64,000 bases of DNA, from the IMG/VR virus record IMGVR_UViG_3300031952_000006; one strand, given 5' to 3'. The notes beneath the pieces are model-generated. The model had not been told where the DNA came from. It saw only the letters and a list, made by a program, of their open reading frames with translations, and ran no database searches. The translations under genes were made by a program, and so were the position numbers. Positions 39,450 through 52,539 of this stretch are shown here, piece by piece. This stretch comes from a virus. Lineage: Duplodnaviria; Heunggongvirae; Uroviricota; Caudoviricetes. Numbering within the stretch: position 1 is the stretch's first letter; every line of letters begins with the position of its first letter.

Positions 39450-39524
39450 ATTATAGAATTTCTAGAAAAATGATTGACTTTTATTATATTTGTTATTATT
39501 GTTATAACATAACGAGACAATATT

Positions 39525-39685
39525 ATGAAAATGATAACAAGACATGATCTAAATCAAAGCTGCCTGTTCCCCTCAACAAAAGAGGGAAACCCAGCAGTAT
39601 ATTGGGAATTTGACATCTTCCGATGATGGAATACATAGTCTATGGAACCAGAAAAACGGAAGATGTCAAAATCTTCCGTTTTTTT
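39525..39685 (+). promoter_or_regulatory. attenuator-like leader: 33-codon uORF plus mutually exclusive antiterminator/terminator hairpins
   Basis: uORF 39525-39626 ends inside GACATCTTCCG (39612-22). That arm can pair with CGGAAGATGTC (39657-67). The same segment also forms the hairpin CGGAAGAT / ATCTTCCG (39657-64 / 39671-78) followed by T7. Confidence 0.35.
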
Positions 39686-39849
39686 ATGCATGGATGATCA
39701 AAATTTTATAATAGATATTCGTGATAGCATACTAACTCTTATATTTGTAGAAAAGCAAAATAATATAAAAATAAGAGATTTTATAAAAAATGCCCAAGTA
39801 GCTCAAATGGATAGAGCAATAGTTTTGTAAACTATAGGTTGTTAGATCA

Positions 39850-40020
39850 TACCTGACCTTGGGCTAAGAAGAAACAGCTTATTGTGCCTAGGGCACCCTC
39901 CATAAAACGGATGAATGTCTATCCATGCCGGACCGCACTATGAATAGACACCCATGAAACACTCACGTTTGAGGAGACACTGAGGCGATTTGGATTGGTC
40001 ATCCTTCTGCCCAAGAAAAT
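39850..40020 (+). ncRNA. ORF-free GC-elevated segment with long-range pairing; candidate structured RNA
   Basis: CTTGGGC(TA)AGAAG at ~39857-71 pairs with CTTCTGCCCAAG at ~40003-14, enclosing ~130 nt that contain the local hairpin GTGCC-TAG-GGCAC. There is no ORF on either strand in an otherwise gene-dense genome. Confidence 0.25.
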
Positions 40021-40103
40021 ATCAGTTAAGGGTGCTGCTGTTTTCTATTTTTAAAGATGTGTATTACTAAAAAAGATTCTATTTTATACTATCAGGAGTT
40101 CAC

Positions 40104-40454
40104 ATGAAAATTAATATCTGTATATTATTAATACTGGTTACCAGTATTTCTTGTTCATCCTTAGCTAAGCTGACAGTAACACCATCAGGAGCAACTATTG
40201 GTGAGAATCAATCGAAATCTTTTGTAGCCGAAGGTTTTGATAAAAAAGGAAAAAAAGTTAAGATAAATCCGGCATGGTCGGTCGATACTGGAGGAGAGGA
40301 CATAGGAACTTTAACACAGCAATCGAACACAGAAGCTACGTTTAGATCAAAAGACTTTGGGGTTGCTGTAATAACTGTTGAGGAAAAAAAGATAAAGGCA
40401 TCTGCAAAGCTTTTCATTGCAAAAAAGAAAGTACCTCACATGCCCCAGAAGTGA
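40104..40454 (+). CDS. Big_2-like (bacterial Ig-like) lipoprotein (116 aa)
   Basis: Signal peptide with lipobox-like LVTSISCSS, then a single Ig-like domain pattern (KLTVTPSGATIGENQSKSFVAEGFDKKGKKV...WSVDTGG). Confidence 0.5.
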   Translation: MKINICILLILVTSISCSSLAKLTVTPSGATIGENQSKSFVAEGFDKKGKKVKINPAWSVDTGGEDIGTLTQQSNTEATFRSKDFGVAVITVEEKKIKASAKLFIAKKKVPHMPQK

Positions 40455-40567
40455 GTATTTTATATAGGTATGAATTAGCCTTTAAATCGTTTACAGGAAT
40501 TACGCTATCAACTGCCTGGTTTAAATAAAGAGTAGATTTAAAAGATCCGGTGCTGTCGGATCTCTAT

Positions 40568-40645
40568 CGCGGGATAGACCAAATGGCTAGGTCGGGTGGC
40601 TCATAACCACTGTCATTTTTGGAGGTTCAAATCCTTCTCCCGCTA
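40568..40645 (+). tRNA. tRNA, anticodon CAU (Met or Ile2)
   Basis: Acceptor CGCGGGA / TCCCGCT (C1·U72 mismatch). D stem GACC/GGTC. Anticodon stem GGTGG/CCACT with loop CTCATAA. T arm GGAGG-TTCAAAT-CCTTC. Unusually long 9-nt variable loop. Confidence 0.5.
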
Positions 40646-40770
40646 ATAATGAAGTAGCAAGAGCGATAAGGGTTCTGCTACCTAATACTAGTTAAAGCTC
40701 CTTGAGTGTATTTCCTAGGTTTGCCTGGGCGTTAAACTCAAAAACGTAGTACGCTACTTTATTATAAAAC

Positions 40771-40910
40771 GCCGGAGTAGCCCAATGGTTGAGGCACTTT
40801 TATTTTGAAAAAGCTAAAAACTTTACAGTTGGCATTACTCGAATGATTCGTCATTCCATCTATGGTAACTTACAAGCAAACAAATCTGAGTTCGAATCTC
40901 GGCTCCGGCA
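40771..40910 (+). tRNA. tRNA-Lys(UUU)-like gene carrying a 72-nt structured insert at the variable-loop position
   Basis: Perfect 7-bp acceptor GCCGGAG / CTCCGGC. D arm. Anticodon arm CTTTT-ATTTTGA-AAAAG (U33, TTT, G37). T arm CTGAG-TTCGAAT-CTCGG. Insert 40814-40885 contains GAATGA-TTCG-TCATTC. Confidence 0.5.
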
Positions 40911-40935
40911 CTTTTTTAGATCAGTAAGGACTAAT

Positions 40936-41097
40936 GAAATATACGAAAAAGCAGCATCGTTGGACTAAAGAAGAAATAGAAGAACTCGAATCTTTAATTA
41001 TTACAAAAACTAATCCAGAGCTAGCTAACTATTTCGAGGTATTTCAAAAAGTTCGTAAGAGAGAAATAGATAAGATTAAGAAGGAAAAAAAGTAATG
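40936..41097 (+). CDS. Myb/SANT-like small protein (53 aa), paralogue of the N-terminal domain of the HNH gene at 44470
   Basis: KKQHRWTKEEIEELESLIITKTNPELANYF vs KKHHWTAEEIEKLKNLSHTKSNPEIAAYF. Confidence 0.35.
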
Positions 41098-41418
41098 TGG
41101 TATGTCAACCAAGCAGGAGAATCCTTTAAATTCAGGAATGTTCTTACAAAAAGAATATTTCAAACAGCAGCATATAGTAATTTTATAAATATTAACATAT
41201 TAGACAGCGATTCAACTATAATAAATATTAACAAAGAAAGAACTCTTGGAGTACCTATAGAGACACTGGCAACAAAGGAAGATGCAGATTTATTTGTTAT
41301 ATACATAACAATATGCTTTGCTCGAAAACGATCGATTTGCTCTTATGAGGCTTACGAAACATTTAGAAAAGAATATGAACACAAAGTTAATGGAGTAAAA
41401 ATAAAAAAATACGGATAA
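41095..41418 (+). CDS. hypothetical protein (107 aa)
   Basis: ORF. Confidence 0.4.
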   Translation: MWYVNQAGESFKFRNVLTKRIFQTAAYSNFININILDSDSTIININKERTLGVPIETLATKEDADLFVIYITICFARKRSICSYEAYETFRKEYEHKVNGVKIKKYG

Positions 41419-41427
41419 AGGAGAAAA

Positions 41428-41706
41428 ATGAAAAAGCTTGGTATGCATGAAGGTCCTGTACGAAAGGGCGGTATTAGTAACAATAATTCATCCAATAAAC
41501 CAGATATCGCACCAGCGGGCCAGGGTTTAACTATACCAAATGCGATAGCACAAATTGATAAAGATAAACCACTGCAAGTACTAGCACAAATAGATAATGC
41601 TATAGTAGCTCTATATGCAGGCGATAAAGGAAGTTCTATTTCAGCTCTTAAGAAAGCAAAAAATATTCTTAAAAATTTTTGTAACGATGGGGGACATTTT
41701 TGGTAG
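41428..41706 (+). CDS. hypothetical protein (92 aa)
   Basis: AAGGAGAAAAATG SD. Confidence 0.4.
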   Translation: MKKLGMHEGPVRKGGISNNNSSNKPDIAPAGQGLTIPNAIAQIDKDKPLQVLAQIDNAIVALYAGDKGSSISALKKAKNILKNFCNDGGHFW

Positions 41707-41773
41707 CTGTAACTCAGTGGTAGAGTCCTTGACTGTGGATCAAGTTACGTAAGTTCAATTCTCACCAGTTACC
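41702..41773 (+). tRNA. tRNA-His (GUG) with encoded G-1
   Basis: G-1 (41702) opposite C73. Acceptor GTAGCTG / CAGTTAC. D arm ACTC-AGTGGTA-GAGT. Anticodon arm CTTGA-CTGTGGA-TCAAG. Confidence 0.65.
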
Positions 41774-41808
41774 CAGTTTTTTAAAATTAAATGAAAGGAG
41801 ATACATGA

Positions 41809-42000
41809 ATGGATCTTAAAGAACTTAAAACAGACGCAACAAAAAAATTAAAGGAGATTGAGAAGAGTAAAAAAGCGCTTGATGCATTTCTTCTCAAAGT
41901 TGAAGAGATTAGAACTGCTCCAAAAGATAAGAAAGAGAAACTCACTGAAAAACTTGAAGCGTGGCTTGGTAAAGCAGGTATCGCTGAAATACTATCATAA
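41809..42000 (+). CDS. small coiled-coil protein (63 aa)
   Basis: AAGGAGATACATGAATG SD. Confidence 0.35.
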   Translation: MDLKELKTDATKKLKEIEKSKKALDAFLLKVEEIRTAPKDKKEKLTEKLEAWLGKAGIAEILS

Positions 42001-42026
42001 TAAAAATTCGCCATCCTTGTAGAGAG

Positions 42027-42401
42027 ATGGCGAATTATTCTATTTTTGTGGAGAATTTTATGTTAAAATATATGTTGTATGCACAAGCAGGCGAAGGTTG
42101 TGATTATACCATAGCCTGTGGAAAAGAAGTATACATGTTATCTTCTTCGTCCATAGAAGAAGCCAAAAAGGAGACAGAGAAATTCATAAAGGAAAATTTT
42201 AGTTCGGACGAACACAGATTGAAAAAAGCTATTATTTATGAAGTAACCAAAAAAGTGATACTCGATATTGAAAGTATATATAAAGTAATAACTGCTAAAA
42301 TTATAGAAAAGTCTCTGGATGAGATCGTTGAAAAAGAAAGAATGGAGTATGAACGCCTAAAAAGAAAATTTGAAAAACAATACAATACTGGGGCATGTTA
42401 A
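42027..42401 (+). CDS. hypothetical protein (124 aa)
   Basis: ORF. Confidence 0.4.
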   Translation: MANYSIFVENFMLKYMLYAQAGEGCDYTIACGKEVYMLSSSSIEEAKKETEKFIKENFSSDEHRLKKAIIYEVTKKVILDIESIYKVITAKIIEKSLDEIVEKERMEYERLKRKFEKQYNTGAC

Positions 42402-42679
42402 TAATGGCAACACAGGAAAAGATCGATCTCGTGTGTAACAATTTTGCAAAATTTTTAAAAGAAAAGAATAAACGCTATGGAGATTCCGCAATAGCTCCTA
42501 TGCGAATTTTTTCTAAAAGTGAGGCAGGAAATCAGATATGCAATAGGCTTGATGACAAACTTAGCCGCATAAAGAATAGTACTGAATTGAAGAAGAATGA
42601 TTGTTCAGATATTTTGGGATACATGGTTCTTCTTATGATTGAAAAAGATTGGACAGAATTTGATGATTTATTGGATTAG
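42395..42679 (+). CDS. hypothetical protein (94 aa)
   Basis: ORF. Confidence 0.35.
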   Translation: MLIMATQEKIDLVCNNFAKFLKEKNKRYGDSAIAPMRIFSKSEAGNQICNRLDDKLSRIKNSTELKKNDCSDILGYMVLLMIEKDWTEFDDLLD

Positions 42680-42866
42680 TATAGTATGGCAATTAAGTTA
42701 TTATCAGACTGCAGGAAATGTAGTTTTTACAAAGAATTGGCCTATGGCAGCCTAGTTATATGTTCTCAATTGAAAGATATTGGTGCTCTCATAATCTCCC
42801 AACCCAGTCACGATAATCCTGGATTTTCGAATGGAACTATGATTGTTCTTTGCAGGAAGGATTGAT

Positions 42867-43139
42867 ATGCAAAAATGTCCTATTTGTGGAACTTCTCTTA
42901 TTGGAAGGGATTATTATGAAGAAATGCATCTAAGTGAGGCTTACTGGAGATGTTCTCACGATCATTATTGGTATGAATTTTCATACGGAACAACTATTGT
43001 TACTATAGGAACAAAGGTATTATCAGAATATTACAGTGATTCAGATAAGAAAAAAACAGAATTCAGACGTGATTGCGAAAAAGCAGTTTTTCAGTATCAG
43101 CAAAGATATAAATCTGACTTAGTCGCATTACTTGTATGA
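42867..43139 (+). CDS. zinc-ribbon protein
   Basis: MQKCPICG...CSHDH. GGAAGGATTGATATG SD favours ATG 42867. Confidence 0.4.
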   Translation: MQKCPICGTSLIGRDYYEEMHLSEAYWRCSHDHYWYEFSYGTTIVTIGTKVLSEYYSDSDKKKTEFRRDCEKAVFQYQQRYKSDLVALLV

Positions 43140-43149
43140 GAAGTATATA

Positions 43150-43329
43150 TGGAAAAAGATGAACTTAAGGTGATAGGTAATTTAATAGACGTTTCATACT
43201 TTTTACTTAGCGTTCTTACAAACCAACTCAAGGCTCAGCATGGTTCCAATATAACTATAATTGGTTTGGATGAAGCTCATAAAAATATTGATGATGCGCG
43301 AGAATGGTATTTTAAAAAGGATATTTAAA
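43150..43329 (+). CDS. hypothetical protein (59 aa, below ORF-track cutoff)
   Basis: ORF MEKDELKVIGNLIDVSYFLL.... Confidence 0.3.
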
Positions 43330-43527
43330 ATGAATGAATTTGTACAATATATACGAGAAGGAATATTTATGTTTTGCGGATCAGTAGTTGTAGCAGCAGT
43401 GCTGTCAGGATTCTACACGATATTTTTTAAAAAAATACCTATGCTTTTTAAAAAGAATCAAAAATCTCCTATAGAAAAAACGGATATTCAGGATTTGGAT
43501 GGAGATATATATGCAACAGAGGATTAA
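43330..43527 (+). CDS. small membrane protein
   Basis: MNEFVQYIREGIFMFCGSVVVAAVLSGFYTIFF with one TM helix. The ORF-track start 43261 overlaps the upstream ORF. Confidence 0.35.
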   Translation: MNEFVQYIREGIFMFCGSVVVAAVLSGFYTIFFKKIPMLFKKNQKSPIEKTDIQDLDGDIYATED

Positions 43528-43690
43528 TTATTTTATAGCAAACAAAGACGTTCCTATAGGAAATATTGAGTATGTAACAAAAGATATGAATGCTCAATTA
43601 GAAAAATTGAATTTATCCCTTGATAAGATAATTTCTATTATCGAAAGAGATAGTTACTTTATCGTATTTTACAAGGATTACACAGAATGA
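43499..43690 (+). CDS. hypothetical protein (63 aa)
   Basis: ORF. Confidence 0.3.
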   Translation: MEIYMQQRINYFIANKDVPIGNIEYVTKDMNAQLEKLNLSLDKIISIIERDSYFIVFYKDYTE

Positions 43691-43920
43691 TACGAATAAC
43701 TGTAGAGTTAATTCCTTTTGGAATAAAAGGTCTTAAAAGAAATATTGGTGAGATAGTTATTATAAATAGCATTGATCATCCAAAACGTCCCGAATATGGA
43801 AACTATGAAGTTACGATAAAAGATATAGGAAAAGATATTATAAAGGAACTGACGATAACAAACCATAAAAGAAAAGAGGGAGTCTGGGTATTACTTAAAA
43901 AAATTTTAGAGAATATCTGA
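43687..43920 (+). CDS. hypothetical protein (77 aa)
   Basis: ORF, ATGA-coupled. Confidence 0.35.
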   Translation: MIRITVELIPFGIKGLKRNIGEIVIINSIDHPKRPEYGNYEVTIKDIGKDIIKELTITNHKRKEGVWVLLKKILENI

Positions 43921-43986
43921 AAATAATCTTGACAGTTCTGAGACATAGTATATATGACATACATATTAAATAAATTATAATTATTA

Positions 43987-44163
43987 TGGATAATATGAAA
44001 GAACAAGGACAAGATCAAGTTACCTTCTCTATAGGTTGCCCTTCAAAAGATAAAAGAGATTCGCTGCGAAAATTGATACGGAAAATAGCAGCAAATGAGG
44101 ATGTTAAGAATTTTGATATAATCTATAAAGCCATTGCGCTTTATAGTAAACAAATTAAATGAA
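43987..44163 (+). CDS. small hypothetical protein (58 aa), possibly RHH-like
   Basis: ORF downstream of TTGACA (43929-34) + TATATG promoter-like element. QVTFSIGCPSKDKRDSLRKLIRK. Confidence 0.3.
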
Positions 44164-44200
44164 AATTATTCAGTGACACGCCACCTGCGTCATGCTTACA

Positions 44201-44276
44201 AGCAAAATAGCTCAGTTGGTAGAGCAGAAGTCTCATACACTTTAGGTCGTCAGTTCAATTCTGACATTTGCATCCA
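44201..44276 (+). tRNA. tRNA, anticodon CAU (Met or Ile2), CCA encoded
   Basis: D arm GCTC-AGTTGGTA-GAGC. Anticodon arm GAAGT-CTCATAC-ACTTT. T arm GTCAG-TTCAATT-CTGAC. Acceptor pairs at 2-6 only (A1·A72 and A7·A66 mismatches). CCA at 44274-76. Confidence 0.55.
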
Positions 44277-44319
44277 AAATAGCATATGCTACTCGCGTGT
44301 CTTTGAATGGTTTATATAT

Positions 44320-44456
44320 GGGGAAGTAGCTCAGTAGTAGAGCAACTTACGGCAAAATAAGTGTTAAAACTTTTTAATTACTGTTACTCACGCAGTTCGC
44401 TGCGTCACATTCAGTAATTTACAAGCAATGCAGTGGTGCAACTCCACTCTTCCCCA
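44320..44456 (+). ncRNA. non-canonical tRNA-like gene with ~70-nt structured insert (homologous to the insert in 40771..40910)
   Basis: Perfect acceptor GGGGAAG / CTTCCCC. Canonical D arm GCTC-AGTAGTA-GAGC. Stem ACTTA/TAAGT with an 8-nt loop CGGCAAAA (no U33). T stem AGTGG/CCACT with atypical loop TGCAACT. Insert 44363-44430 has AATTACTG...ACGCAG-TTCG-CTGCGT...CAGTAATT. Confidence 0.4.
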
Positions 44457-44469
44457 AAATACATAACAT

Positions 44470-44994
44470 ATGTATAGTATGAAAAAACATCACTGGACAG
44501 CAGAAGAAATAGAAAAGTTAAAAAACCTTTCTCATACAAAATCCAACCCAGAGATAGCTGCATACTTTGGTATTACACCAAAAGCAGCTGAAAGAGCAAT
44601 GGCTAGGTATGGTATAAAAAGAGATAAGAAATTAATAAGTAAAATATTAAGTAATACTGGTAAAAAGAATCATGAGAAATATAATTATTTTGGAGAGAAT
44701 AATCCATTTTGGAAAGGGGGCATAAGCAAAAATAAGTACCATTATAAAAAATTGCAAATGCAGTGATATCCAGAAAGAGTAAAAGCGCGTAGGCTTGTTT
44801 ATATTGAAATAAAAGCAGGTAGATTAAAAAGAGGAAAGTGTGAGATTTGTAAAAAACTAAATGCCGAAGCGCACCATAATGATTACTCAAAACCATTAGA
44901 AATAAGGTGGTTCTGTAAAAAACACCATAGAGAGTATCATAATACTTTATGTATTTTAATTCTTTTCTCTTTCATACTTATTTCAATGAAATAA
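44470..44994 (+). pseudogene. HNH homing endonuclease (Myb-like N-domain + HNH C-domain) interrupted by a single in-frame TGA at 44764-66
   Basis: Same frame before and after the stop: ...KKLQMQ * YPERVKARRLVYIEIKAGRLKRGKCEICKKLNAEAHHNDYSKPLEIRWFCKKHHREYH (HNH motif). Sits inside the tRNA cluster. Confidence 0.5.
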
Positions 44995-45032
44995 TTATCA
45001 AAGAATAAAGGATTCCATCAGAGAATAGTTAC

Positions 45033-45104
45033 AAGCTTATTGTGCAATTGGTAGCACACCAGTTTTTAGGACCGGCAGTGGGAGTTCAAGTCTCTCTAAG
45101 TTTA
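45033..45104 (+). tRNA. tRNA with anticodon UUA (ochre/amber-suppressor-like), embedded in a stem-flanked unit 45010-45135
   Basis: Acceptor AAGCTTA / TAAGTTT. D arm GTGC-AATTGGTA-GCAC. Anticodon stem CCAGT/ACCGG (one A·C mismatch) with loop TTTTAGG (U33, TTA, G37). T arm GGGAG-TTCAAGT-CTCTC. 5' flank GGATTC...GAGAATAG pairs with 3' flank CTATTATC...GAATCC, then T6. Confidence 0.45.
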
Positions 45105-45144
45105 CACATACTATTATCAACTCGAATCCTTTTTTCAGTCATAA

Positions 45145-45447
45145 ATGGAGGTTCTTATGACACGCAGACAAAATGAAATAGCTCCTGTAGTAATCACACC
45201 ACTTAATGTAAGCGACGACATTCGCAACAAAATCTTTGTTACGATTGATGGCCGCGACTGGCAAAAAGATCTGTCAGAGCTTGGTCTCACCTTTGACTCT
45301 TCAGAGCGTGATATAATGTCACGTCTTACTCCGCTAATCCAGGAAGAGTTTAACCAAGACATCAGCGATACGTATAAGATTCGCAAGGCAATCAATAGTC
45401 AAAATATCTATGTTATTCCGAACAGTACTGCAGGAATTGTCCTGTAG
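45145..45447 (+). CDS. hypothetical protein (100 aa)
   Basis: AATGGAGG SD. Lies between the two stem-flanked RNA units. Confidence 0.45.
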   Translation: MEVLMTRRQNEIAPVVITPLNVSDDIRNKIFVTIDGRDWQKDLSELGLTFDSSERDIMSRLTPLIQEEFNQDISDTYKIRKAINSQNIYVIPNSTAGIVL

Positions 45448-45617
45448 CTGTTTATAAGCAGCGCCTCCATCAGAGTAGAGCTACAAGCAAATTTTCCAAG
45501 TTCGAATCTTGGAATCGCCGCAGGGCGATTTGGCCGATTGGATAAGGCAAAAGACTTGAAATCTTTGATATAGCACAAACGCTCTACTCAACTCGAGGCA
45601 CTGCTTATACACAGCTA
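45445..45617 (+). ncRNA. Y-RNA-like element: long bipartite closing stem plus circularly permuted tRNA-like module, immediately upstream of Ro60 gene
   Basis: The 21-nt arms 45445-65 and 45597-617 are complementary with 2 mismatches. A second helix AGAGTAGAGC / GCTCTACTC follows. The enclosed hairpins run in the order T-arm (CCAAG-TTCGAAT-CTTGG), acceptor-like (AATCGCC-GCAG-GGCGATT), D-like (GCC-GATTGGATAA-GGC), anticodon-like (AAAGA-CTTGAAA-TCTTT). Ends 14 nt before the Ro60 start codon. Confidence 0.5.
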
Positions 45618-45631
45618 TAAGGAGAATTATT

Positions 45632-47233
45632 ATGCAAGAACCAACACTATCCTATCTCTCTAATGAAGATCGTCTGAAAGCCTACAATGCCATCGTTGGA
45701 GGGTGCGAACACGTATACTCAAAAGGAAAACTACAGCATGAGAAACTTGCTGGAGTACTTAGCATATTCATTCAGCTTGCAGAGCATGATCCATACTTTC
45801 TTGCTCACTTTGCTTCATATGCTGTTAAGAACCTTGAAAGTAAAGACTTGAAGGTCATAGCTGCATTTGCAAACTCACTGTCTGATGCAGATGGTACTCC
45901 CTTCATCACCGGAAAGGATGCTCAAGGAAAACCTATCTATAGTCCGACATACAAGAAACCAAATCTTCGGTTGGTGTCACAAGCTGCTGTTCAGGAGTTC
46001 GATCCTAAGCTGGTGAATCGTATTATCGAAATTGCCAACTTAAAGCAATCGATCGGAACCAGAAGAGAGGCAACACACTTTGCCAATTCTTTAAAAACCG
46101 CTATCAAGAAATGGGTACGCTTTCGTGAACAAAATCCGAAGGCTCTTGAAGGTATGAAGAAATCAGGTTTCGCACCAACCTTCAAAAACATTTACCGGAT
46201 GATGCACATGAAACCAAGCCAGGAAGCTGCAGAGATTCTCGGTTGGAGACAGGGCAGCACAAAGAAAGGAAACGTTGAGAAGATTGAAAAAAGAAATCTC
46301 ATAGATTTCAAAGGGCTTACTGACATTCAAATTGCTCAGAAAATTCGTGATGAGAAGATCCCAGTCTTAGGCGCTATGGGAGCTCTACCTTCTAAGATAT
46401 CTCCCGTCATTGCTGCAGCTGTCCTTGAGCAAGCATCAGGAAACCAAGCAGTCATTCTCAGAAATCTGTTTGATAGTCAGGGTCTGCTTAAAGATAAAGA
46501 AGTAATGAGGGTCTTCACTGAAAAGATTCAGACTGCCAAAACAGCACTGGATAGGGTTGAAAAACTCAACACCGAAGTCGATGAAGAAGTTCAAAAAGTT
46601 CTGAAGACAGCTAAAGCTGATAAGCGTAAAAAGGATGTCGGAAATGTTGGACGTGCCTATATCCATATTGACATCAGCGGCAGCATGACCGGTGCTATCG
46701 AATTCGCCAAGAACAATGGTGCAATCATTGCTGAGTGTATTGAGAATCCTGCAGAGAACTTCTTCTGGGGAGCATTCAATACCAATGGATATTCTTTGTC
46801 TAAACCGGCATCATTTGAAAAAGATGCATTCATGGCTTCTCTGTATGGTCTCAATGCTGGTGGCGGAACAAACTGCCTTGCTTGCTACAGCGATGCTCGA
46901 AAGAACAACTGTGATATTGATATCTACATCACCGACCAAGAGCATATGGGAGAGCCTATTGACCAGCTCATTCTTAAATATGATGCGCAGGGATTCTCCC
47001 GGCCAAAAGCTGTCGTCGTTGTTGACTTTTCGAATGGAAGAAGCAATGGATCTTTTAAAGATCATCTTGAAAGAGTAGGGATTCCTGTTTCTGTTATAAA
47101 ACCGCAAGCACTGACAGAAAGTGCGCTGGTCTCTCAGGCAATTAAGACTGCTTTGAAGGGAGCTACTGCAGTTATTGATGAAATCATGAATACCCCGTTA
47201 CTCAAACTTCCAGCATACTGGGAAGCAGTGTAA
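45632..47233 (+). CDS. rsr: Ro60/Rsr orthologue (TROVE-like helical N-terminal region + C-terminal vWA domain)
   Basis: 533 aa. N-terminal ~340 aa helical repeats. C-terminal vWA with MIDAS DISGSM...T...ITDQE. Co-located with the Y-RNA-like element. AAGGAGA SD. Confidence 0.6.
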   Translation: MQEPTLSYLSNEDRLKAYNAIVGGCEHVYSKGKLQHEKLAGVLSIFIQLAEHDPYFLAHFASYAVKNLESKDLKVIAAFANSLSDADGTPFITGKDAQGKPIYSPTYKKPNLRLVSQAAVQEFDPKLVNRIIEIANLKQSIGTRREATHFANSLKTAIKKWVRFREQNPKALEGMKKSGFAPTFKNIYRMMHMKPSQEAAEILGWRQGSTKKGNVEKIEKRNLIDFKGLTDIQIAQKIRDEKIPVLGAMGALPSKISPVIAAAVLEQASGNQAVILRNLFDSQGLLKDKEVMRVFTEKIQTAKTALDRVEKLNTEVDEEVQKVLKTAKADKRKKDVGNVGRAYIHIDISGSMTGAIEFAKNNGAIIAECIENPAENFFWGAFNTNGYSLSKPASFEKDAFMASLYGLNAGGGTNCLACYSDARKNNCDIDIYITDQEHMGEPIDQLILKYDAQGFSRPKAVVVVDFSNGRSNGSFKDHLERVGIPVSVIKPQALTESALVSQAIKTALKGATAVIDEIMNTPLLKLPAYWEAV

Positions 47234-47234
47234 T

Positions 47235-47432
47235 ATGATTCGTGTAGGCGATATCTTACGAGGCTTTTGTTTTGGTTACTTTGGCAGAGATTCATTCGAT
47301 GATAAAATCGTAGAAGCGATGGGACCAGACTGGATCGTAGCCAGAGAAATAAACACAGGCATTGTAAGACTCGCTATACGAAATCATTCAGAGAGCTGGG
47401 AAAGTATTGAAAAGTCAATGAAAGGAGAATAA
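47235..47432 (+). CDS. hypothetical protein (65 aa)
   Basis: ORF immediately after the Ro60 stop. Confidence 0.35.
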   Translation: MIRVGDILRGFCFGYFGRDSFDDKIVEAMGPDWIVAREINTGIVRLAIRNHSESWESIEKSMKGE

Positions 47433-47433
47433 T

Positions 47434-47682
47434 ATGAAATTTGAAATTCAGCTTTTTAAATATCTTGGTATTGCTGTAGTCGGAGCAGCCTACTTCGGTG
47501 TCGGCATACCACTGCTTATCTCAGCAAATAATGATTTCCTGGCCTCTGCCGGAATAATTCTGATGTTATTGGGTATTGCTGGAATGATACTCTTCGTACG
47601 AAGAGAGGTTTTATTATATATGGATAAAAAAGGAGATGAAAAAGATGGATCAAAACATGAAACAAATGGTGGTACTCATTAG
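47434..47682 (+). CDS. small two-TM membrane protein (possible partner of the SPFH protein)
   Basis: AAAGGAGAATAATATG SD. Two TM helices. Confidence 0.4.
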   Translation: MKFEIQLFKYLGIAVVGAAYFGVGIPLLISANNDFLASAGIILMLLGIAGMILFVRREVLLYMDKKGDEKDGSKHETNGGTH

Positions 47683-48517
47683 TATTACTATTGTCGTTGC
47701 CATTGGAGGAATTTACGGCTGTTCTAGCTGTAAGAAAGTTCCTGCCGGTTATGTTGGCGTTAAGGTGTATTTGCTTGGTGGATCTAAAGGTGTTGATTCT
47801 GAAAAGCTCGGTGTTGGTCGGCACTTTATCGGAATGAATGAAGAATTGTATTTGTTTCCTACATTCAAGCAAAACTATGTATGGACCAAGTCAACCGACG
47901 AAGGAAGAGCACAAGACGAAAGTATAACTTTTCAAACTAAAGAAGGTCTTGAGATTGGAGCTGATGTCGGAATAACCTATTCAGTTGACCCTACAAAAGT
48001 TGATATTGTGTTTCAAAAATATCGCAAGGGTATTGAAGAAATTACCGACATATTTCTACGAAATAGAGTTCGGGATACATTCAACCTTGTTGCATCTCAA
48101 TATGATGTTGAATCTGCCTATGGTGAAGGAAAATCAAAAATGATTGAAGAAGTAAACACAACTCTCAAGGGAGAGCTTGAAAAAGAAGGTATCCTCATAG
48201 AGCGTGTTTATCTTATTGGTAAATTTCGATTACCTGAAGCAGTTACGACTGCCCTCAATGCTAAAATAGAAGCAACACAGAAGGCTCAACAATCTGAAAA
48301 TGAACTTCGTCAGGCAGAAGCAGAGGCAAAGAAAACTGTTGCATCTGCACGAGCGGAAGCAGAGGCAATTCGATTGAAACAACAATCACTTACGCCCCTT
48401 TTAGTTAAAATGCGATGGATTGAAGCGTGGGAGAAAGGTGGATCGAAGATGCCAATGGTTGTTGGCGGTAGTGGTAGTATTTTGAACATTCAGGATGTTT
48501 TAAAAGCTGGAGAATAA
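47636..48517 (+). CDS. SPFH/band-7 (stomatin/prohibitin-like) protein
   Basis: N-terminal TM helix, SPFH core, and a C-terminal coiled coil rich in A/E/Q (KAQQSENELRQAEAEAKKTVASARAEAEAIR). The true start may be a downstream Met (about 47657-47666). Confidence 0.6.
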   Translation: MKKMDQNMKQMVVLISITIVVAIGGIYGCSSCKKVPAGYVGVKVYLLGGSKGVDSEKLGVGRHFIGMNEELYLFPTFKQNYVWTKSTDEGRAQDESITFQTKEGLEIGADVGITYSVDPTKVDIVFQKYRKGIEEITDIFLRNRVRDTFNLVASQYDVESAYGEGKSKMIEEVNTTLKGELEKEGILIERVYLIGKFRLPEAVTTALNAKIEATQKAQQSENELRQAEAEAKKTVASARAEAEAIRLKQQSLTPLLVKMRWIEAWEKGGSKMPMVVGGSGSILNIQDVLKAGE

Positions 48518-49875: not shown

Positions 49876-50904
49876 ATGACTTATTTGACAAGTACAACGG
49901 GGACACTTACTGGAATAAGTTCATTCAATGATGCTACTGCAACGGGAAATTGGATTACTTATGACAATACAACAACAATAAATATAACTTCTGCTACAAA
50001 TATTTATTACAATCCTACTCAGTACAATCAATACATAACTAATGGTGGAACAGCAATCAATTTTGGCATTGTTCAAGACAAGAAAGTTATTCATCCTCAA
50101 TTATATTTTAAATTTGTTAAATCCGAGATGACCAAGCTTGAACAAAAAGAAATGACAGAACGCCTCTTCAAACTACAAACCTTGGTAAAGCAAGCTGAAG
50201 ACCTTGGGCAGAAAGCGCTATATGAAGACTTCGCTCGTAAGATTGCAATTACAGTTCGTGAACAGGAAATAAATGTCTGTGGAATTGAATACATCGTTAG
50301 CAAAGGCTCTGTGGATAAATATAAAGACAAAGTAAAAGATGTTGATATAAAGTTCAGCAAGCTTGAGGAATATTCTCGACCAATACCGACCAATGTTAAG
50401 AAACGCTTGGACAAGTTTAAGAAGCTCATGATGTTTGATAATTACATGGTGCTGTACCTTGATTATAAAGAGAAAATTGATATAGATAACAAAAAGAAAG
50501 CTGTTGCTGAACCGAAGACCAATAAACAAAAGATAAAGGAAAAAGATCCGATTCTGTTTGGAACTCTTGATTATGAACCAGATAAGCTCTACTTCATTGC
50601 CGACTGGATTGATGAATACTGTGATCTTACTCTTGATAAATTCGTACAAACGATTAAAAAGAATGATCCTGAGTACGAACTCGATGGCATTGACGAACTC
50701 GATGAAGAATATATTCAGAGAATGGTTAAAGAATCAAGAGAACGATTTGTTAGGTTGAAAGAAACTGATCCTGGAACGTATAAGAAACTCATGGTAGATG
50801 AAGATATGTCGTATCTTAAAAAACTTGAGAAAAAAGAATCGCAGGAACAAAAGAAAACATTAAGGGAAATAATATCACAAAGATTAAAAAAAGGTGATAA
50901 ATGA
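49876..50904 (+). CDS. hypothetical protein with T/N-rich N-terminus and K/E-rich coiled-coil C-terminus (342 aa)
   Basis: AGAGAGG SD. Confidence 0.4.
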   Translation: MTYLTSTTGTLTGISSFNDATATGNWITYDNTTTINITSATNIYYNPTQYNQYITNGGTAINFGIVQDKKVIHPQLYFKFVKSEMTKLEQKEMTERLFKLQTLVKQAEDLGQKALYEDFARKIAITVREQEINVCGIEYIVSKGSVDKYKDKVKDVDIKFSKLEEYSRPIPTNVKKRLDKFKKLMMFDNYMVLYLDYKEKIDIDNKKKAVAEPKTNKQKIKEKDPILFGTLDYEPDKLYFIADWIDEYCDLTLDKFVQTIKKNDPEYELDGIDELDEEYIQRMVKESRERFVRLKETDPGTYKKLMVDEDMSYLKKLEKKESQEQKKTLREIISQRLKKGDK

Positions 50905-51488
50905 ATATTGTAAGATTTGAAAATTTAAACCTTCTCAGTATTGGAAATACAGTACAAATTTCTGGTATGATTTGGTCAGGTGAAGGAATAAATTACCTAT
51001 GCTACCTCCCCGATGAGTTTAATCCAGAATATGATACTGTGCTTATGCCACTGACACTGGAAGAATGGAACGAACTGGTTCGCCAGTCTGATATCATGGA
51101 AACAGAAATCCTTGCAAAGGATACTGACGGAAATCTTGTAAAAACTATCCTGAGAAAATCTACCAGACAGATCGATCAAACTATTCAATGGAAAGTATTT
51201 CACAGAGATAATTACACATGTCGCTATTGTGGAAAAACGGGTATACCTCTCAGCGTAGATCATGTTGTTCTATGGGAAGAAGGTGGTCCATCTACCGAAG
51301 AAAATCTTATTACTGCATGTAAAAAATGCAATAAAACTAGGGGTAGTCAACAATATCCTAATTGGTTGATAAGTGAATATTATTTTAAAGTATCAAGAAA
51401 CATCAATGAGGAAACTCGTAAAAAGAATGCTGCGATTATTCAAACTCTGTATTCAATTCCAATAAGGATACATATGAAATCAAGATAA
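50901..51488 (+). CDS. HNH endonuclease
   Basis: HRDNYTCRYCGKTGIPLSVDHVVLWEEGGPSTEENLITACKKCNKTRG. ATGA-coupled. Confidence 0.7.
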   Translation: MNIVRFENLNLLSIGNTVQISGMIWSGEGINYLCYLPDEFNPEYDTVLMPLTLEEWNELVRQSDIMETEILAKDTDGNLVKTILRKSTRQIDQTIQWKVFHRDNYTCRYCGKTGIPLSVDHVVLWEEGGPSTEENLITACKKCNKTRGSQQYPNWLISEYYFKVSRNINEETRKKNAAIIQTLYSIPIRIHMKSR

Positions 51489-51499
51489 GAGGAAAAACA

Positions 51500-51706
51500 A
51501 TGGGCGATTCAAATAAACCATGCCCAGTGTGTAAAGGTAAAGATGTGCTAATCGAAACCTACACCATAGAAAAATTCAAGTATTGTCGAATAGTATGTGT
51601 CAACTCCTGCCGAAAGGGAAATTGGTGCAAAAGCGCTGCTCGGGCATTAAAAGCCTGGGATGATAGAAAATGGTCAAAAACAGATGAACCGGGGTTACAT
51701 ACATGA
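51500..51706 (+). CDS. Cys-rich small protein (68 aa)
   Basis: CPVCKGK...CVNSCRKGNWC. Confidence 0.35.
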   Translation: MGDSNKPCPVCKGKDVLIETYTIEKFKYCRIVCVNSCRKGNWCKSAARALKAWDDRKWSKTDEPGLHT

Positions 51707-52539
51707 TTGATTTTGAAAAATTTACAATGGTTCAAACATTTATTGCACCCGTACTGAATCACAAGTGCCAATGCAATCGAAAGAAGTATACTGTTGAATC
51801 TGAGGATGGGTGGTATCGCATTACGGCTAAGGGGAACTTTATAGTGGAACGCATTCCTATTTCTGCTGAAATGGAAAGTTTTCCTGCCAAGAATATTATA
51901 AAGGGGTATACCTACGGCAATCAAATAGTATTTCAAAACTTTGATGTTGCCAAACGAAAAGCTGGAACTGATATGATGGCTCCTTTGGAGTTTAATCAAT
52001 CTGCAACATTTTCTTCAATAGAAGCAATCATTTGGGAAGATAAGCATATCTATTACTATCGTCCCAACTATGCAGATGTGGCAATCTATGAGGTTAAATC
52101 TCACTTTGACTCTGAAGAAGATATTCATACTGCTAAAGGTGTATCTCCTGAACTGAGAACACTATATCTCTTTCATGACATAGAACGCCAGCAGCTGCAA
52201 GAACTACAAAAAGCCATTCAACGAAAAGAAGAACAAAAGCAACGTGAAAAAGAACTGGAACAATTCAAACAAACCCTCCAGGGAAGATTGATTACAACAT
52301 TTAATCGCGCAGGGGCTCAAGTATTAAGTTACTCAGTATTACGAGATACTATTACTGTTGATTGGAAGCTTCTGGGATCAAACCAAGAGTTTAATTCAAT
52401 AATAGAACTTGAGACATTCAAAGTTCGAGAAGCTGGTTATTGCCTCAGCGGACATGATAAAGAACATACTGCACAGTCTATGGTAATGCTCGCTCAGGAT
52501 TACGAAGAGAGAGGATTAATCTACAAGACTCGGTATTAA
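51703..52539 (+). CDS. hypothetical protein (278 aa)
   Basis: ORF, ATGA-coupled. Confidence 0.4.
   Translation: MIDFEKFTMVQTFIAPVLNHKCQCNRKKYTVESEDGWYRITAKGNFIVERIPISAEMESFPAKNIIKGYTYGNQIVFQNFDVAKRKAGTDMMAPLEFNQSATFSSIEAIIWEDKHIYYYRPNYADVAIYEVKSHFDSEEDIHTAKGVSPELRTLYLFHDIERQQLQELQKAIQRKEEQKQREKELEQFKQTLQGRLITTFNRAGAQVLSYSVLRDTITVDWKLLGSNQEFNSIIELETFKVREAGYCLSGHDKEHTAQSMVMLAQDYEERGLIYKTRY

What the first reader, a model, noticed from the sequence alone, without database searches (positions are those of the whole stretch)
44320..44456. Second insert-bearing tRNA-like gene with the same insert architecture but a non-canonical anticodon and T loop
This has a perfect acceptor GGGGAAG / CTTCCCC and a canonical D arm. 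The would-be anticodon arm has an 8-nt loop (CGGCAAAA, no U33), and the T loop is TGCAACT. The ~68-nt insert (44363-44430) is organised like the one at 40814-40885: (C/G)TTAAAACTT, a long stem with a TTACTC internal loop, a UUCG tetraloop hairpin (ACGCAG-TTCG-CTGCGT), then TTACAAGCAA before the T stem. Two independent copies of the same inserted module argue for a mobile or functional RNA element that targets the variable-loop position, rather than chance.
Basis: seen in the sequence. Interest (0 to 1): 0.65.

Follow-up and report, generated by a model that had tools for sequence, protein, structure and literature searches.

The report
tRNA-shaped Y RNA for phage Ro60
This gene encodes a transfer-RNA-shaped non-coding RNA whose variable loop is replaced by a conserved hairpin built like the stem of a Y RNA that sits next to a phage Ro60-like protein gene 1.2 kb away, so it is most likely one of several RNA partners of that protein, not a decoding tRNA, ribozyme or mobile intron.

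Summary
Window 44320-44456 is a tRNA cloverleaf (Rfam tRNA 40.6 bits). It has an 8-nt anticodon loop, a UGCAACU T loop and a 69-nt insert at the variable-loop position, and 40771-40910 is a sibling.

The insert is a real, conserved structured module: helix P2, an internal loop (U/A)ACUY opposite C(C)AUN, helix P3, then an invariant UACAAGC. Almost every helix pair covaries.

The same module, uncapped, forms the 5'/3' stem of three more RNAs in the window. One is a YrlA-type Y RNA with a permuted tRNA-like core at 45440-45625. It lies directly upstream of ORF 45632-47233, which has a Ro60 (TROVE + vWA) fold.

In 114 related phage loci, module-bearing RNAs lie on the Ro60-like gene's strand: 48 of 48 model hits, 40 versus 0 capped and 79 versus 1 open pattern matches. 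The module sits in variable, anticodon or D loops, or flanks whole tRNA-like cores whose anticodons drift.

Best reading: a non-permuted, tRNA-embedded Y-RNA analogue that presents a Ro60-binding-type stem. Binding is inferred, not shown. The canonical Ro60 motif (GNCGAA) is absent and Rfam has no matching family. I found no support for self-cleavage or mobility. This is a new variant of a known kind.

The parts
44320..44456 (+). The finding: a tRNA-like ncRNA with an open acceptor stem, D arm, anticodon-like arm (8-nt loop), capped module in the variable-loop position, T arm (UGCAACU loop) and discriminator A
   Evidence: Rfam tRNA 40.6 bits. Fold z = -4.6. Orthologues in L003, L004 and L009.
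44363..44431 (+). The inserted module. P1 is 44370-44372 with 44423-44425. P2 is 44376-44383 with 44412-44419. The internal loop is UUACUC (44384-44389) opposite CACAUU (44406-44411). P3 is 44390-44395 with 44400-44405, capped by UUCG (44396-44399). The invariant UACAAGC is at 44420-44426.
   Evidence: Covariance models R1 and R2 score it 93.3 and 79.2 bits. On the model-fitted alignment, 14 of 17 pairs have compensatory changes and 95% of cells are paired, against about 40% when partners are slid. An independent MAFFT + RNAalifold run gives 13 of 13 pairs covarying.
40771..40910 (+). Sibling tRNA-like ncRNA with the same capped module (40814-40882) in the variable-loop position. Its anticodon-like loop is AUUUUGA.
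   Evidence: Rfam tRNA 39.6 bits. Ungapped 69-nt alignment with compensatory stem changes.
44170..44306 (+). Open form of the module. The leader and trailer pair (GACACGC/GCGUGUC, internal loop CACCU opposite UACUC, then P2, then UUACA) around a complete cloverleaf, which ARAGORN calls tRNA-Met CAU at 44201-44276.
   Evidence: Consensus fold of 6 orthologues: 40 pairs, 16 with compensatory changes. Orthologues carry CAU, GAU, UAU or AAU anticodons.
45008..45130 (+). Open form of the module (GAUUC-CAUCA-GAGAAUAG-UUACAAGC ... CUAUUAUC-AACUC-GAAUC) around a cloverleaf, which ARAGORN calls 'tRNA-Stop' UUA at 45033-45105.
   Evidence: The orthologous cores carry ACG (L001, L002) or GCA (L005), or are not called at all (L003, L009).
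45440..45625 (+). YrlA-type Y-RNA-like gene. A long 5'/3' stem carries the same internal loop (CAUCA opposite AACUC) and runs into CUACAAGCA. It encloses a permuted tRNA-like core: T arm CCAAG-UUCGAAU-CUUGG, a closed acceptor-like hairpin, a D arm GGCC-GAUUGGAUAA-GGC, and an anticodon-like arm.
   Evidence: MFE -77.7 kcal/mol, z = -8.4. Conserved upstream of the gene in at least 11 loci, with 44 of 47 pairs covarying. Rfam gives only a sub-threshold partial tRNA hit of 28.2 bits.
45632..47233 (+). Ro60-like protein gene (TROVE-like ring plus vWA domain with a DxSxS MIDAS motif), the presumed protein partner
   Evidence: phmmer versus human RO60, E = 3.7e-4. AF2 model pLDDT 82. The top 12 Foldseek PDB hits are all Ro60/TROVE, E 2.6e-10 to 8e-7, including Thermus phage phiLo Ro60. 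Pfam vWA_Ro60 matches weakly in 10 of 24 homologues.
45145..45447 (+). Conserved small ORF (96-100 aa) directly upstream of the Y RNA and Ro60-like gene. It may be an accessory protein, but whether it belongs to the system is uncertain.
   Evidence: tblastn finds it in 43 of 114 loci. The AF2 model (pLDDT 80) has a two-hairpin-plus-helix (beta-grasp-like) fold with no significant PDB match.

Best explanation
Window 44320-44456 encodes a stable non-coding RNA, not a decoding tRNA. It keeps a tRNA body (acceptor stem with open ends, D arm, T arm and elbow). From the variable-loop position it projects a 69-nt module: helix P2, a conserved internal loop ((U/A)ACUY opposite C(C)AUN), helix P3 and an invariant UACAAGC.

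This module is the hairpin-capped version of the terminal stem of the Y-RNA-like gene that lies immediately upstream of the phage's Ro60-like gene. The RNA is therefore a circular permutation of a YrlA-type Y RNA, with the acceptor stem open and the Ro stem closed instead of the reverse.

Proposed mechanism:
1. The RNA is transcribed with the neighbouring tRNA-like genes and trimmed at its tRNA-like ends by RNase P and 3' processing enzymes (inferred).
2. The module docks on the phage Ro60-like ring in the way Y RNA stems dock on Ro60 (inferred from context and architecture).
3. The tRNA-shaped body stabilises the RNA and/or recruits a tRNA-binding partner such as an exonuclease (inferred by analogy with the Ro60-Y RNA-PNPase complex).

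The phage carries five such RNAs with different bodies. This suggests a set of alternative adaptors or gates for one Ro60-like protein.
For: Shown by computation:

1. Cloverleaf plus insert: Rfam tRNA 40.6 and 39.6 bits.
2. Module structure: 95% of cells paired, 14 of 17 pairs with compensatory changes, slid controls about 40%. An independent alignment gives 13 of 13 pairs covarying.
3. The same motifs, in the same strand order, are in the stem of the RNA at 45440-45625 (z = -8.4). That RNA has a T arm, closed acceptor-like hairpin and D arm in YrlA order, and is conserved with 44 of 47 covarying pairs.
4. The adjacent ORF has a Ro60 fold.
5. Association in 114 loci fetched through the protein, down to 25% protein identity:
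   - All 48 model hits are on the gene's strand.
   - Structure-filtered pattern matches: capped form 40 versus 0, open form 79 versus 1.
   - 21 of 26 loci with at least 40% identity and at least 3 kb of flank on both sides have a motif RNA.
6. In big tRNA arrays (L008, L016, L036), the motif RNAs are the ones next to the Ro60-like gene. The roughly 13-35 ordinary tRNAs further upstream lack the motif.
7. In a database-wide IMG/VR scan, the only match with full P2 pairing (8 of 8) lies beside a Ro60-like gene on the same strand.
8. Decoding is not conserved:
   - Other family members have 8-nt loops or A34 anticodons.
   - One orthologous core reads UUA, ACG or GCA in different relatives.
9. 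The elbow is maintained: D-loop G18 to A and T-loop U55 to G change together.

Published precedent: bacterial and phage Y RNAs lie within 4 kb of Ro60 on the same strand and contain tRNA-like domains (PMC4201824). Phage phiLo Ro60 binds two upstream Y-like RNAs (PMC12135203).
Against: - No binding data exist. The link to the Ro60-like protein rests on co-location, co-orientation and architecture.
- The canonical Ro60-contact motifs (GNCGAAN0-1G, GGUCCGA) are absent from all five window RNAs.
- The protein is so divergent that Pfam's TROVE model does not match it.
- Because the gene sits at the edge of tRNA arrays, part of the association could come from tRNA-array linkage.
- About 45% of loci with good flanks show no motif RNA by my strict criteria.
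- The closest relative (L001) has lost the 44320 RNA to an HNH gene insertion, so this copy is dispensable there.
- The open forms flank cores that could still be real tRNAs, for example with NAU anticodons. A processing signal would also explain that.
Confidence: 0.65

Rival explanations
1. The module is a processing signal. A host or phage endonuclease recognises the conserved stem and internal loop. It cuts it out of tRNA precursors when it is internal (an intron-like element, with the halves re-ligated) and trims leader and trailer when it flanks a tRNA. This would be analogous to the archaeal bulge-helix-bulge motif, which also occurs both inside tRNAs at many positions and around permuted or split tRNAs.
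For: - The same motif is found capped inside tRNA scaffolds at several positions and open around complete cloverleaves.
- Deleting the module in silico gives an ARAGORN-callable tRNA in 36 of 44 cases.
- In open forms the tRNA 5' end falls inside UACA|AGC.
Against: - Geometry: an 8-bp helix lies between a 5-6 x 5-6 nt internal loop and a 3 x 3 loop, which is not a 3-4-3 bulge-helix-bulge.
- No common excision boundary restores a 7-nt anticodon loop in the anticodon-loop type (reading).
- Many scaffolds could not decode even after excision, because they have 8-nt loops, G33 or A34.
- Orthologous cores change anticodon freely.
- The permuted RNA at 45440-45625 has no tRNA product to release.
- Ordinary tRNAs in the same arrays lack the motif.
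- No RNA ligase was recognised among the conserved neighbours.
Confidence: 0.15
2. The module binds some other factor instead of the Ro60-like protein. Candidates are the conserved 96-100-aa protein encoded at 45145-45447 or a host protein. The proximity to the Ro60-like gene would then only reflect a shared operon.
For: The small ORF is conserved beside the Y RNA and the Ro60-like gene in 43 loci, and its function is unknown.
Against: At least 13 loci have module RNAs but no detectable homologue of the small ORF, whereas every locus has the Ro60-like gene by construction. The stem, internal loop, stem layout at the RNA termini is the classic Y RNA arrangement (PMC4201824, PMC12135203).
Confidence: 0.12
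3. It is a working tRNA with an extra-long variable arm, comparable to class II tRNAs or allo-tRNAs. The long arm would serve as an identity element for a synthetase, and the 8-nt anticodon loop would read a 4-base codon or act as a frameshift suppressor.
For: The acceptor, D and T arms are intact. The L004 orthologue has a canonical Asn GUU loop. 8-nt loops recur in the family.
Against: - The anticodon loop drifts among close orthologues while the module is conserved.
- The same module occurs where no anticodon arm exists.
- A 69-nt arm with conserved loop sequence is far outside known class II arms (my own knowledge).
- The closest relative lacks the gene.
Confidence: 0.05
4. It is a self-cleaving ribozyme or an autonomous mobile RNA element that inserts into tRNA variable loops.
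For: There are two copies in one genome, and the insertion position varies among relatives.
Against: - No match to any Rfam ribozyme or intron family at E <= 10.
- The element encodes no enzyme.
- The neighbouring ORFs are unrelated HNH-type remnants that are absent in relatives.
- The conserved nucleotides are shared with non-inserted (open) forms.
Confidence: 0.03

Closest known systems
YrlA-type bacterial and phage Y RNAs (Chen et al. 2014, PMC4201824)
   Same: Both are encoded within a few kb of a Ro60-family gene on the same strand. Both combine a protein-binding stem with a tRNA-like domain (T arm, D arm, acceptor-like stem). Often there are several per genome. The YUAY that opens the V region in YrlA may correspond to the UUAC of UUACAAGC here; that is a resemblance I did not test.
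   Different: In YrlA the RNA ends lie in the Ro-binding stem and the acceptor-like stem is closed. In the finding the acceptor stem carries the ends and the stem module is capped. The GNCGAAN0-1G motif is absent. The stem emerges from the variable-loop position, and an anticodon-like arm is retained. No Rfam family matches.
Thermus phage phiLo Ro60 with Yrl1 and Yrl2 (PMC12135203)
   Same: A phage-encoded Ro60 with Y-like RNAs just upstream of the gene and a stem-bulge-stem layout. phiLo Ro60 is among the best structural matches to the window protein.
   Different: The phiLo RNAs were picked by a CGAA motif and have the canonical 5'/3' stem. No tRNA-embedded capped form has been described. 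The window protein shares only 13-15% identity with solved Ro60 structures.
Deinococcus radiodurans Yrn1 and the Ro60-Y RNA-PNPase complex
   Same: A two-module adaptor: one module binds Ro60 and the other, tRNA-like, engages a partner. Yrn1 also keeps an anticodon-like arm (PMC4201824).
   Different: No partner is known here, and the motif and topology differ.
Class II tRNAs (Leu, Ser, Tyr, Sec) and allo-tRNAs with long variable arms
   Same: An extra helix projects from the variable-loop position of an otherwise normal cloverleaf.
   Different: Known arms are roughly 10-25 nt (my own knowledge) and serve synthetase identity. Here the arm is 69 nt with conserved internal-loop sequence and an unconstrained anticodon, and the same module occurs at other positions.
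Archaeal bulge-helix-bulge introns and permuted or split tRNA genes
   Same: One RNA motif is found both inside tRNAs at several positions and as leader-trailer pairing around tRNA bodies. Circular permutation of tRNA-like genes is also shared.
   Different: There is no 3-4-3 bulge-helix-bulge geometry, the module sequence is conserved, there is no evidence of excision, and the context is a tailed-phage-like genome.

Membership tests
Y RNA (YrlA-type) | Encoded near (within about 4 kb of) a Ro60 orthologue, on the same strand | tested here: met
   44320-44456 ends 1.2 kb upstream of the Ro60-fold ORF 45632-47233 on the same strand. The family-wide strand bias is 48 of 48 model hits.
Y RNA (YrlA-type) | The 5' and 3' ends pair to form the stem that carries the Ro60 binding site | tested here: not met
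   In 44320-44456 the ends form a tRNA acceptor stem and the stem module is capped by UUCG. This feature is met by the neighbouring RNA 45440-45625.
Y RNA (YrlA-type) | Conserved Ro60-contact motif GNCGAAN0-1G (bacteria) or GGUCCGA (animals) in the 5' strand | tested here: not met
   A pattern search over all five window RNAs finds neither motif. A different conserved set (C(C)AUN, ACUY, UACAAGC) takes its place.
Y RNA (YrlA-type) | tRNA-like domain with T arm, D arm and acceptor-like stem | tested here: met
   Rfam tRNA 40.6 bits over the full cloverleaf.
Y RNA (YrlA-type) | Physically bound by the Ro60 protein | not testable with these tools
   This needs immunoprecipitation, gel-shift or a structure.
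Ro60 / TROVE protein (for ORF 45632-47233) | HEAT-repeat ring (TROVE) followed by a vWA domain with a MIDAS motif | tested here: met
   Full-length Foldseek matches to Ro60 structures with TM about 0.5 and E down to 2.6e-10. DISGS is present in the sequence. vWA_Ro60 matches weakly in homologues. The Pfam TROVE model itself does not match.
Canonical elongator tRNA | 7-nt anticodon loop with U33 and purine 37 | tested here: not met
   The loop is CGGCAAAA, 8 nt with G at position 33. ARAGORN does not call the gene. With the module deleted it reports a 4-base 'anticodon' gcaa.
Canonical elongator tRNA | T loop UUCRANY and a G18-G19 D loop | tested here: not met
   The T loop is UGCAACU and the D loop is AGUAGUA. 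Orthologues L009 and L004 have UUCGACU or UUCAAUU with AGUGGUA.
Canonical elongator tRNA | Anticodon conserved among orthologues | tested here: not met
   AUGUUAA (L004), CGGUUAA (L003, L009) and CGGCAAAA (window).
Self-cleaving ribozymes and group I/II introns | Match to a known catalytic core | tested here: not met
   cmscan of 4227 Rfam families at E <= 10 over both insert regions returns only tRNA plus chance-level hits.
Archaeal-type tRNA intron | Bulge-helix-bulge (3-nt bulge, 4-bp helix, 3-nt bulge) at the exon-intron junctions | tested here: not met
   The junction region is P1 (3 bp), a 3 x 3 loop, then P2 (8 bp). No staggered 3-4-3 arrangement is present.

The most novel reading that the evidence does not exclude
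The phage Ro60-like protein uses a portable RNA 'handle' that evolution has repeatedly grafted onto tRNA scaffolds. The handle appears capped inside variable, anticodon or D loops, open around whole tRNAs, or open around permuted tRNA-like cores. This gives a natural permutation series that links true tRNAs to Y RNAs. It would be direct evidence that Y RNAs arise from tRNAs. It would also imply that Ro60 can be loaded onto, or can gate the maturation of, specific tRNA-shaped RNAs during infection, for example as decoys or adaptors aimed at host tRNA-targeting defences or nucleases.
Probability: 0.35. Interest if true: 0.85.

Novelty: new variant of a known kind. Interest (0 to 1): 0.68.

Why it matters
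Y RNAs and Ro60 are conserved from bacteria to humans, and Ro60 is a major lupus and Sjogren autoantigen. Why bacterial Y RNAs look like tRNAs, and where they came from, is still unresolved.

This locus offers a family in which the same protein-binding-type stem is joined to tRNA bodies in every topology: unpermuted, permuted, internal and flanking. The partner is a very divergent phage Ro60 that domain models miss. If the binding is confirmed, several things follow:

- It defines a new Ro60 recognition motif.
- It adds several Y RNAs per phage genome.
- It gives a testable route from tRNA to Y RNA.
- It warns annotators that 'intron-bearing', 'suppressor' or odd tRNAs next to Ro60-like genes in phage tRNA arrays are probably not decoding tRNAs.

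Tried and rejected
- **BLAST of 40001-48000 against GenBank phages:** no match.
- **Single-sequence relative search in IMG/VR:** nothing. An alignment-based search was needed.
- **Strict DNA pattern in IMG/VR:** 0 hits.
- **Ribozyme or intron identity:** rejected. No Rfam match at E <= 10.
- **ORFs right after each tRNA-like gene (40934-41095, 44470-44766) as part of the element:** rejected. They resemble HNH or D5-like DNA-binding N-termini, and window 44457-44998, which contains the second ORF, is absent from L003 and L009.
- **Excision boundaries that would restore canonical tRNAs:** no consistent boundary for the anticodon-loop type.
- **Promoter and terminator scan of 39500-47400:** promoter-like sites at background level, and no terminator-like site that defines the RNA gene ends.
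- **Conserved neighbours (100-aa, 278-aa and others):** no Pfam, PHROG, NCBIfam or PDB assignment. The fold of the 100-aa protein has no significant PDB match.
- **Profile of the Ro60-like family against PDB sequences:** nothing, although the single sequence hit RO60 weakly.
- **Literature searches:** no description of tRNA-embedded or capped Y RNA modules.

Full report
**1. The observation**

- a perfect 7-bp acceptor stem, GGGGAAG with CTTCCCC, followed by discriminator A;
- a D arm, GCTC-AGTAGTA-GAGC;
- a 5-bp anticodon-like stem, ACTTA with TAAGT, closing an 8-nt loop CGGCAAAA;
- a 69-nt insert at 44363-44431;
- a T arm, AGTGG-TGCAACT-CCACT.

Rfam's tRNA model accepts the whole 137 nt at 40.6 bits (gathering score 29), and the sibling 40771-40910 at 39.6 bits. 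ARAGORN calls neither. Folding alone reproduces the cloverleaf plus a long hairpin (z = -4.6).

The two inserts align without a gap over 69 nt. The single-stranded blocks AAAACUUU, UUACUC, UUCG and UUACAAGCAA are identical. All six apical-stem pairs and four lower-stem pairs differ by compensatory changes. The composite pattern occurs twice in the window and never in 100 shuffles.

**2. The module is a conserved structured RNA**

I built a covariance model from the two inserts (R1) and rebuilt it from 20 hits (R2). It finds the module in many related loci.

- On the model-fitted alignment, 95% of cells are paired and 14 of 17 pairs show changes on both sides. Sliding the partners by 1-3 columns drops pairing to 34-45%.
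- An independent MAFFT + RNAalifold run on 18 sequences recovers the same two helices, with all 13 predicted pairs covarying.
- The conserved unpaired positions are (U/A)ACUY just before the apical helix P3, C(C)A just after it, and UACAAGC directly after the lower helix P2. The CU of ACUY and all of UACAAGC are invariant in the 18-sequence alignment.

**3. The context that explains it**

ORF 45632-47233 (533 aa) starts 1.2 kb downstream on the same strand. Pfam finds nothing in it. It does hit human RO60 by phmmer (E = 3.7e-4, collinear over the vWA region). Ten of 24 homologues weakly match Pfam vWA_Ro60.

An AlphaFold2 model built from 24 homologues (pLDDT 82) has Ro60/TROVE structures as its 12 best Foldseek PDB matches. 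These are full-length matches with TM about 0.5 and E from 2.6e-10 to 8e-7, and they include Thermus phage phiLo Ro60. It is a very divergent Ro60-family protein.

The window is phage-like. It carries PHROG families, a Dda-like helicase and HNH genes.

**4. A canonical-topology Y RNA carries the same motif**

The 186 nt between the preceding ORF and the Ro60-like gene (45440-45625) fold with MFE -77.7 kcal/mol and z = -8.4. A long stem formed by the two ends encloses, in this order:
- a T arm, CCAAG-UUCGAAU-CUUGG;
- a closed acceptor-like hairpin;
- a D arm, GGCC-GAUUGGAUAA-GGC;
- an anticodon-like hairpin.

This is the permuted tRNA-like layout described for YrlA Y RNAs (PMC4201824). The RNA is conserved at the same place in at least 11 loci, and 44 of 47 predicted pairs covary. 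Rfam gives only a sub-threshold partial tRNA hit (28.2 bits).

Its stem reads GCCUC-[CAUCA]-GAGUAGAGC-UACAAGCA on the 5' strand and GCUCUACUC-[AACUC]-GAGGC on the 3' strand. The insert reads CUGCGU-[CACAUU]-CAGUAAUU-UACAAGCA and AAUUACUG-[UUACUC]-ACGCAG. The elements and their strand order are the same.

So the insert is the Y RNA's terminal stem closed by a tetraloop. In the Y RNA this stem emerges between the anticodon-like arm and the T arm, which is the variable-loop position. The finding is therefore a circular permutation of the Y RNA: acceptor stem open and stem module closed, instead of the reverse.

**5. More copies in the window**

I wrote a structure-aware pattern for the open form: a 5-bp P3, 3-7 nt, an 8-nt P2, then TACAAGC; then 60-230 nt; then the P2 partner, 0-2 nt, ACTY and the P3 partner.
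- It finds 79 sites on the gene's strand and 1 on the other strand in the 1.67 Mb of Ro60-linked sequence.
- It finds 0 and 1 in 240 unrelated control loci.

In the window, the pattern marks the flanks of the ARAGORN 'tRNA-Stop UUA' (45008-45130), and reading the sequence shows the same open stem, with a bulged P2, around the 'tRNA-Met CAU' (44170-44306). Consensus folds of the orthologues confirm a leader-trailer stem with the motif around a complete cloverleaf in both cases.

The window thus holds five motif RNAs between 40.8 and 45.6 kb. All five TACAAGC occurrences in that stretch belong to them.

**6. Association with the Ro60-like gene**

I fetched 114 loci through the protein: 60 from metagenomes and 54 from IMG/VR, at 25-95% identity.

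- All 48 R2 hits at E <= 0.1 lie on the gene's strand.
- Capped-form pattern matches with a perfect 6-bp P3 number 40 versus 0 on the two strands.
- Among loci with at least 3 kb of flank on both sides, 21 of 26 with at least 40% identity and 12 of 34 more distant ones have a motif RNA. These are strict criteria, so the numbers are lower bounds.
- In loci with large tRNA arrays (L008, L016, L036), the roughly 13-35 ordinary tRNAs lack the motif. The motif RNAs are the ones adjacent to the Ro60-like gene. This argues against a generic tRNA-array signal.
- A database-wide IMG/VR scan with an open-form pattern gave 24 matches. Only one has full (8 of 8) P2 pairing, and it lies beside a Ro60-like gene on the same strand.
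- At least 13 loci carry the module without a detectable homologue of the small conserved ORF. That points to the Ro60-like protein as the constant partner.

**7. Scaffolds and loss of decoding**

Every capped hit I inspected sits in a tRNA-like scaffold. Deleting the module in silico yields an ARAGORN tRNA spanning the junction in 36 of 44 cases. The junction falls in the variable loop, the anticodon region or the D loop/arm. Rfam's tRNA model also spans these RNAs (130-150 nt, 43-58 bits).

Anticodon loops are often unusable. They have 8 nt, G33 or C33, or A34 anticodons such as AAU, AUG and AUC.

For the finding itself:
- The L004 orthologue has a canonical Asn loop AUGUUAA. L003 and L009 have CGGUUAA, and the window has CGGCAAAA.
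- The anticodon stem, the D and T arms and the module loops are conserved throughout.
- D-loop G18 to A and T-loop U55 to G change together, which suggests the tRNA elbow is maintained.

The core that ARAGORN calls a UUA suppressor reads ACG in L001 and L002 and GCA in L005. These bodies are selected for shape, not for decoding.

**8. Mechanism**

Shown by computation: the anatomy, the covariation, the homology of the module with the Y RNA stem, the Ro60 fold of the neighbouring protein, the co-orientation and co-occurrence, and the relaxed anticodon constraint.

Inferred:
- The RNA is matured at its tRNA-like ends.
- The module binds the Ro60-like ring as Y RNA stems bind Ro60.
- The tRNA body stabilises the RNA and/or recruits a partner. 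This follows the adaptor model established for Deinococcus Ro60-Y RNA-PNPase and proposed for phiLo (PMC4201824, PMC12135203).
- Five RNAs with different bodies suggest alternative adaptors or gates.

The main rival is a processing or excision signal. It is disfavoured by the geometry, the lack of consistent excision boundaries, the non-decodable scaffolds and the permuted member, but only RNA end mapping can exclude it.

**9. Comparison with known families, and novelty**

The RNA works like a YrlA/Yrn1-type Y RNA, but it fails two defining features: the ends are not in the Ro-binding stem, and the GNCGAA/GGUCCGA motif is absent. It also fails three canonical tRNA features: a 7-nt anticodon loop with U33, a canonical T loop and D loop, and a conserved anticodon. 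No Rfam 15 family covers either the capped module or the open RNAs. Literature searches found no description of tRNA-embedded Y RNA modules.

I rate it a new variant of a known kind. Caveats:
- All evidence is computational.
- The loci were gathered through the protein, so unbiased linkage rests on strand asymmetry, position within the arrays and one database-wide hit.
- The closest relative has replaced this particular copy with an HNH gene.

Noticed in passing
window 45033-45105: ARAGORN calls a 'tRNA-Stop' with anticodon UUA, an apparent ochre suppressor. It sits inside an open Y-type stem. Its orthologues read ACG (L001, L002) or GCA (L005), or are not called. It is probably a tRNA-like Y RNA core and not evidence of stop-codon recoding. 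Its acceptor stem has a G3-U70 pair that is forced by the AAGC of the motif.
   Followed up: partly
window 40934-41095 and 44470-44766; L001 about 830-1360: Each capped tRNA-like gene is followed by a short ORF with a shared N-terminus (HRWTxEEIExL) resembling HNH or D5-like DNA-binding domains. Window 44457-44998, which contains the second ORF, is absent from L003 and L009. In L001 a different HNH-type ORF replaces the 44320 RNA altogether. This looks like homing-endonuclease traffic in the tRNA region.
   Followed up: partly
window 45145-45447: A 96-100-aa ORF is conserved immediately upstream of the Y RNA and the Ro60-like gene in 43 loci. The AF2 model (pLDDT 80) shows two beta-hairpins and one helix (beta-grasp-like). 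It has no significant structural or family match.
   Followed up: partly
L003 6-221 and 2679-2906: Two HEARO RNAs (HNH endonuclease-associated RNA and ORF; Rfam 118 and 126 bits) occur in a close relative. One lies between the tRNA-like RNAs and the Ro60-like gene.
   Followed up: no
L036 3737-3998; L055 2463-2764: A relative with about 35 tRNA genes carries a hit to archaeal-type RNase P RNA (95 bits, gathering score 84) inside its tRNA array. Another relative carries a tmRNA gene (75 bits).
   Followed up: no
window 61739-62905: This ORF matches PHROG 1211 (E = 1e-51), an adenylosuccinate-synthetase-like family of the kind used by phages that replace adenine with 2-aminoadenine. It may hint at modified DNA.
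   Followed up: no
window 44334-44339 and 44437-44443, compared with L003, L009, L004: D-loop AGUAGUA with T-loop UGCAACU (window, L003) versus AGUGGUA with UUCGACU or UUCAAUU (L009, L004). This is an apparent covariation of the G18-U55 tertiary contact (to A18-G55).
   Followed up: partly
window 51703-52539 and 50901-51488: A 278-aa ORF of unknown function (no family or PDB match) and an HNH-domain ORF recur near the Ro60-like gene in 45 and 29 of the related loci.
   Followed up: partly
L022, minus strand, about 17.1 kb: This is the only open-form motif match on the strand opposite the Ro60-like gene. It looks like a genuine member (GGTTCC...GCTTACAAGCA ... ACTTGAACC).
   Followed up: no
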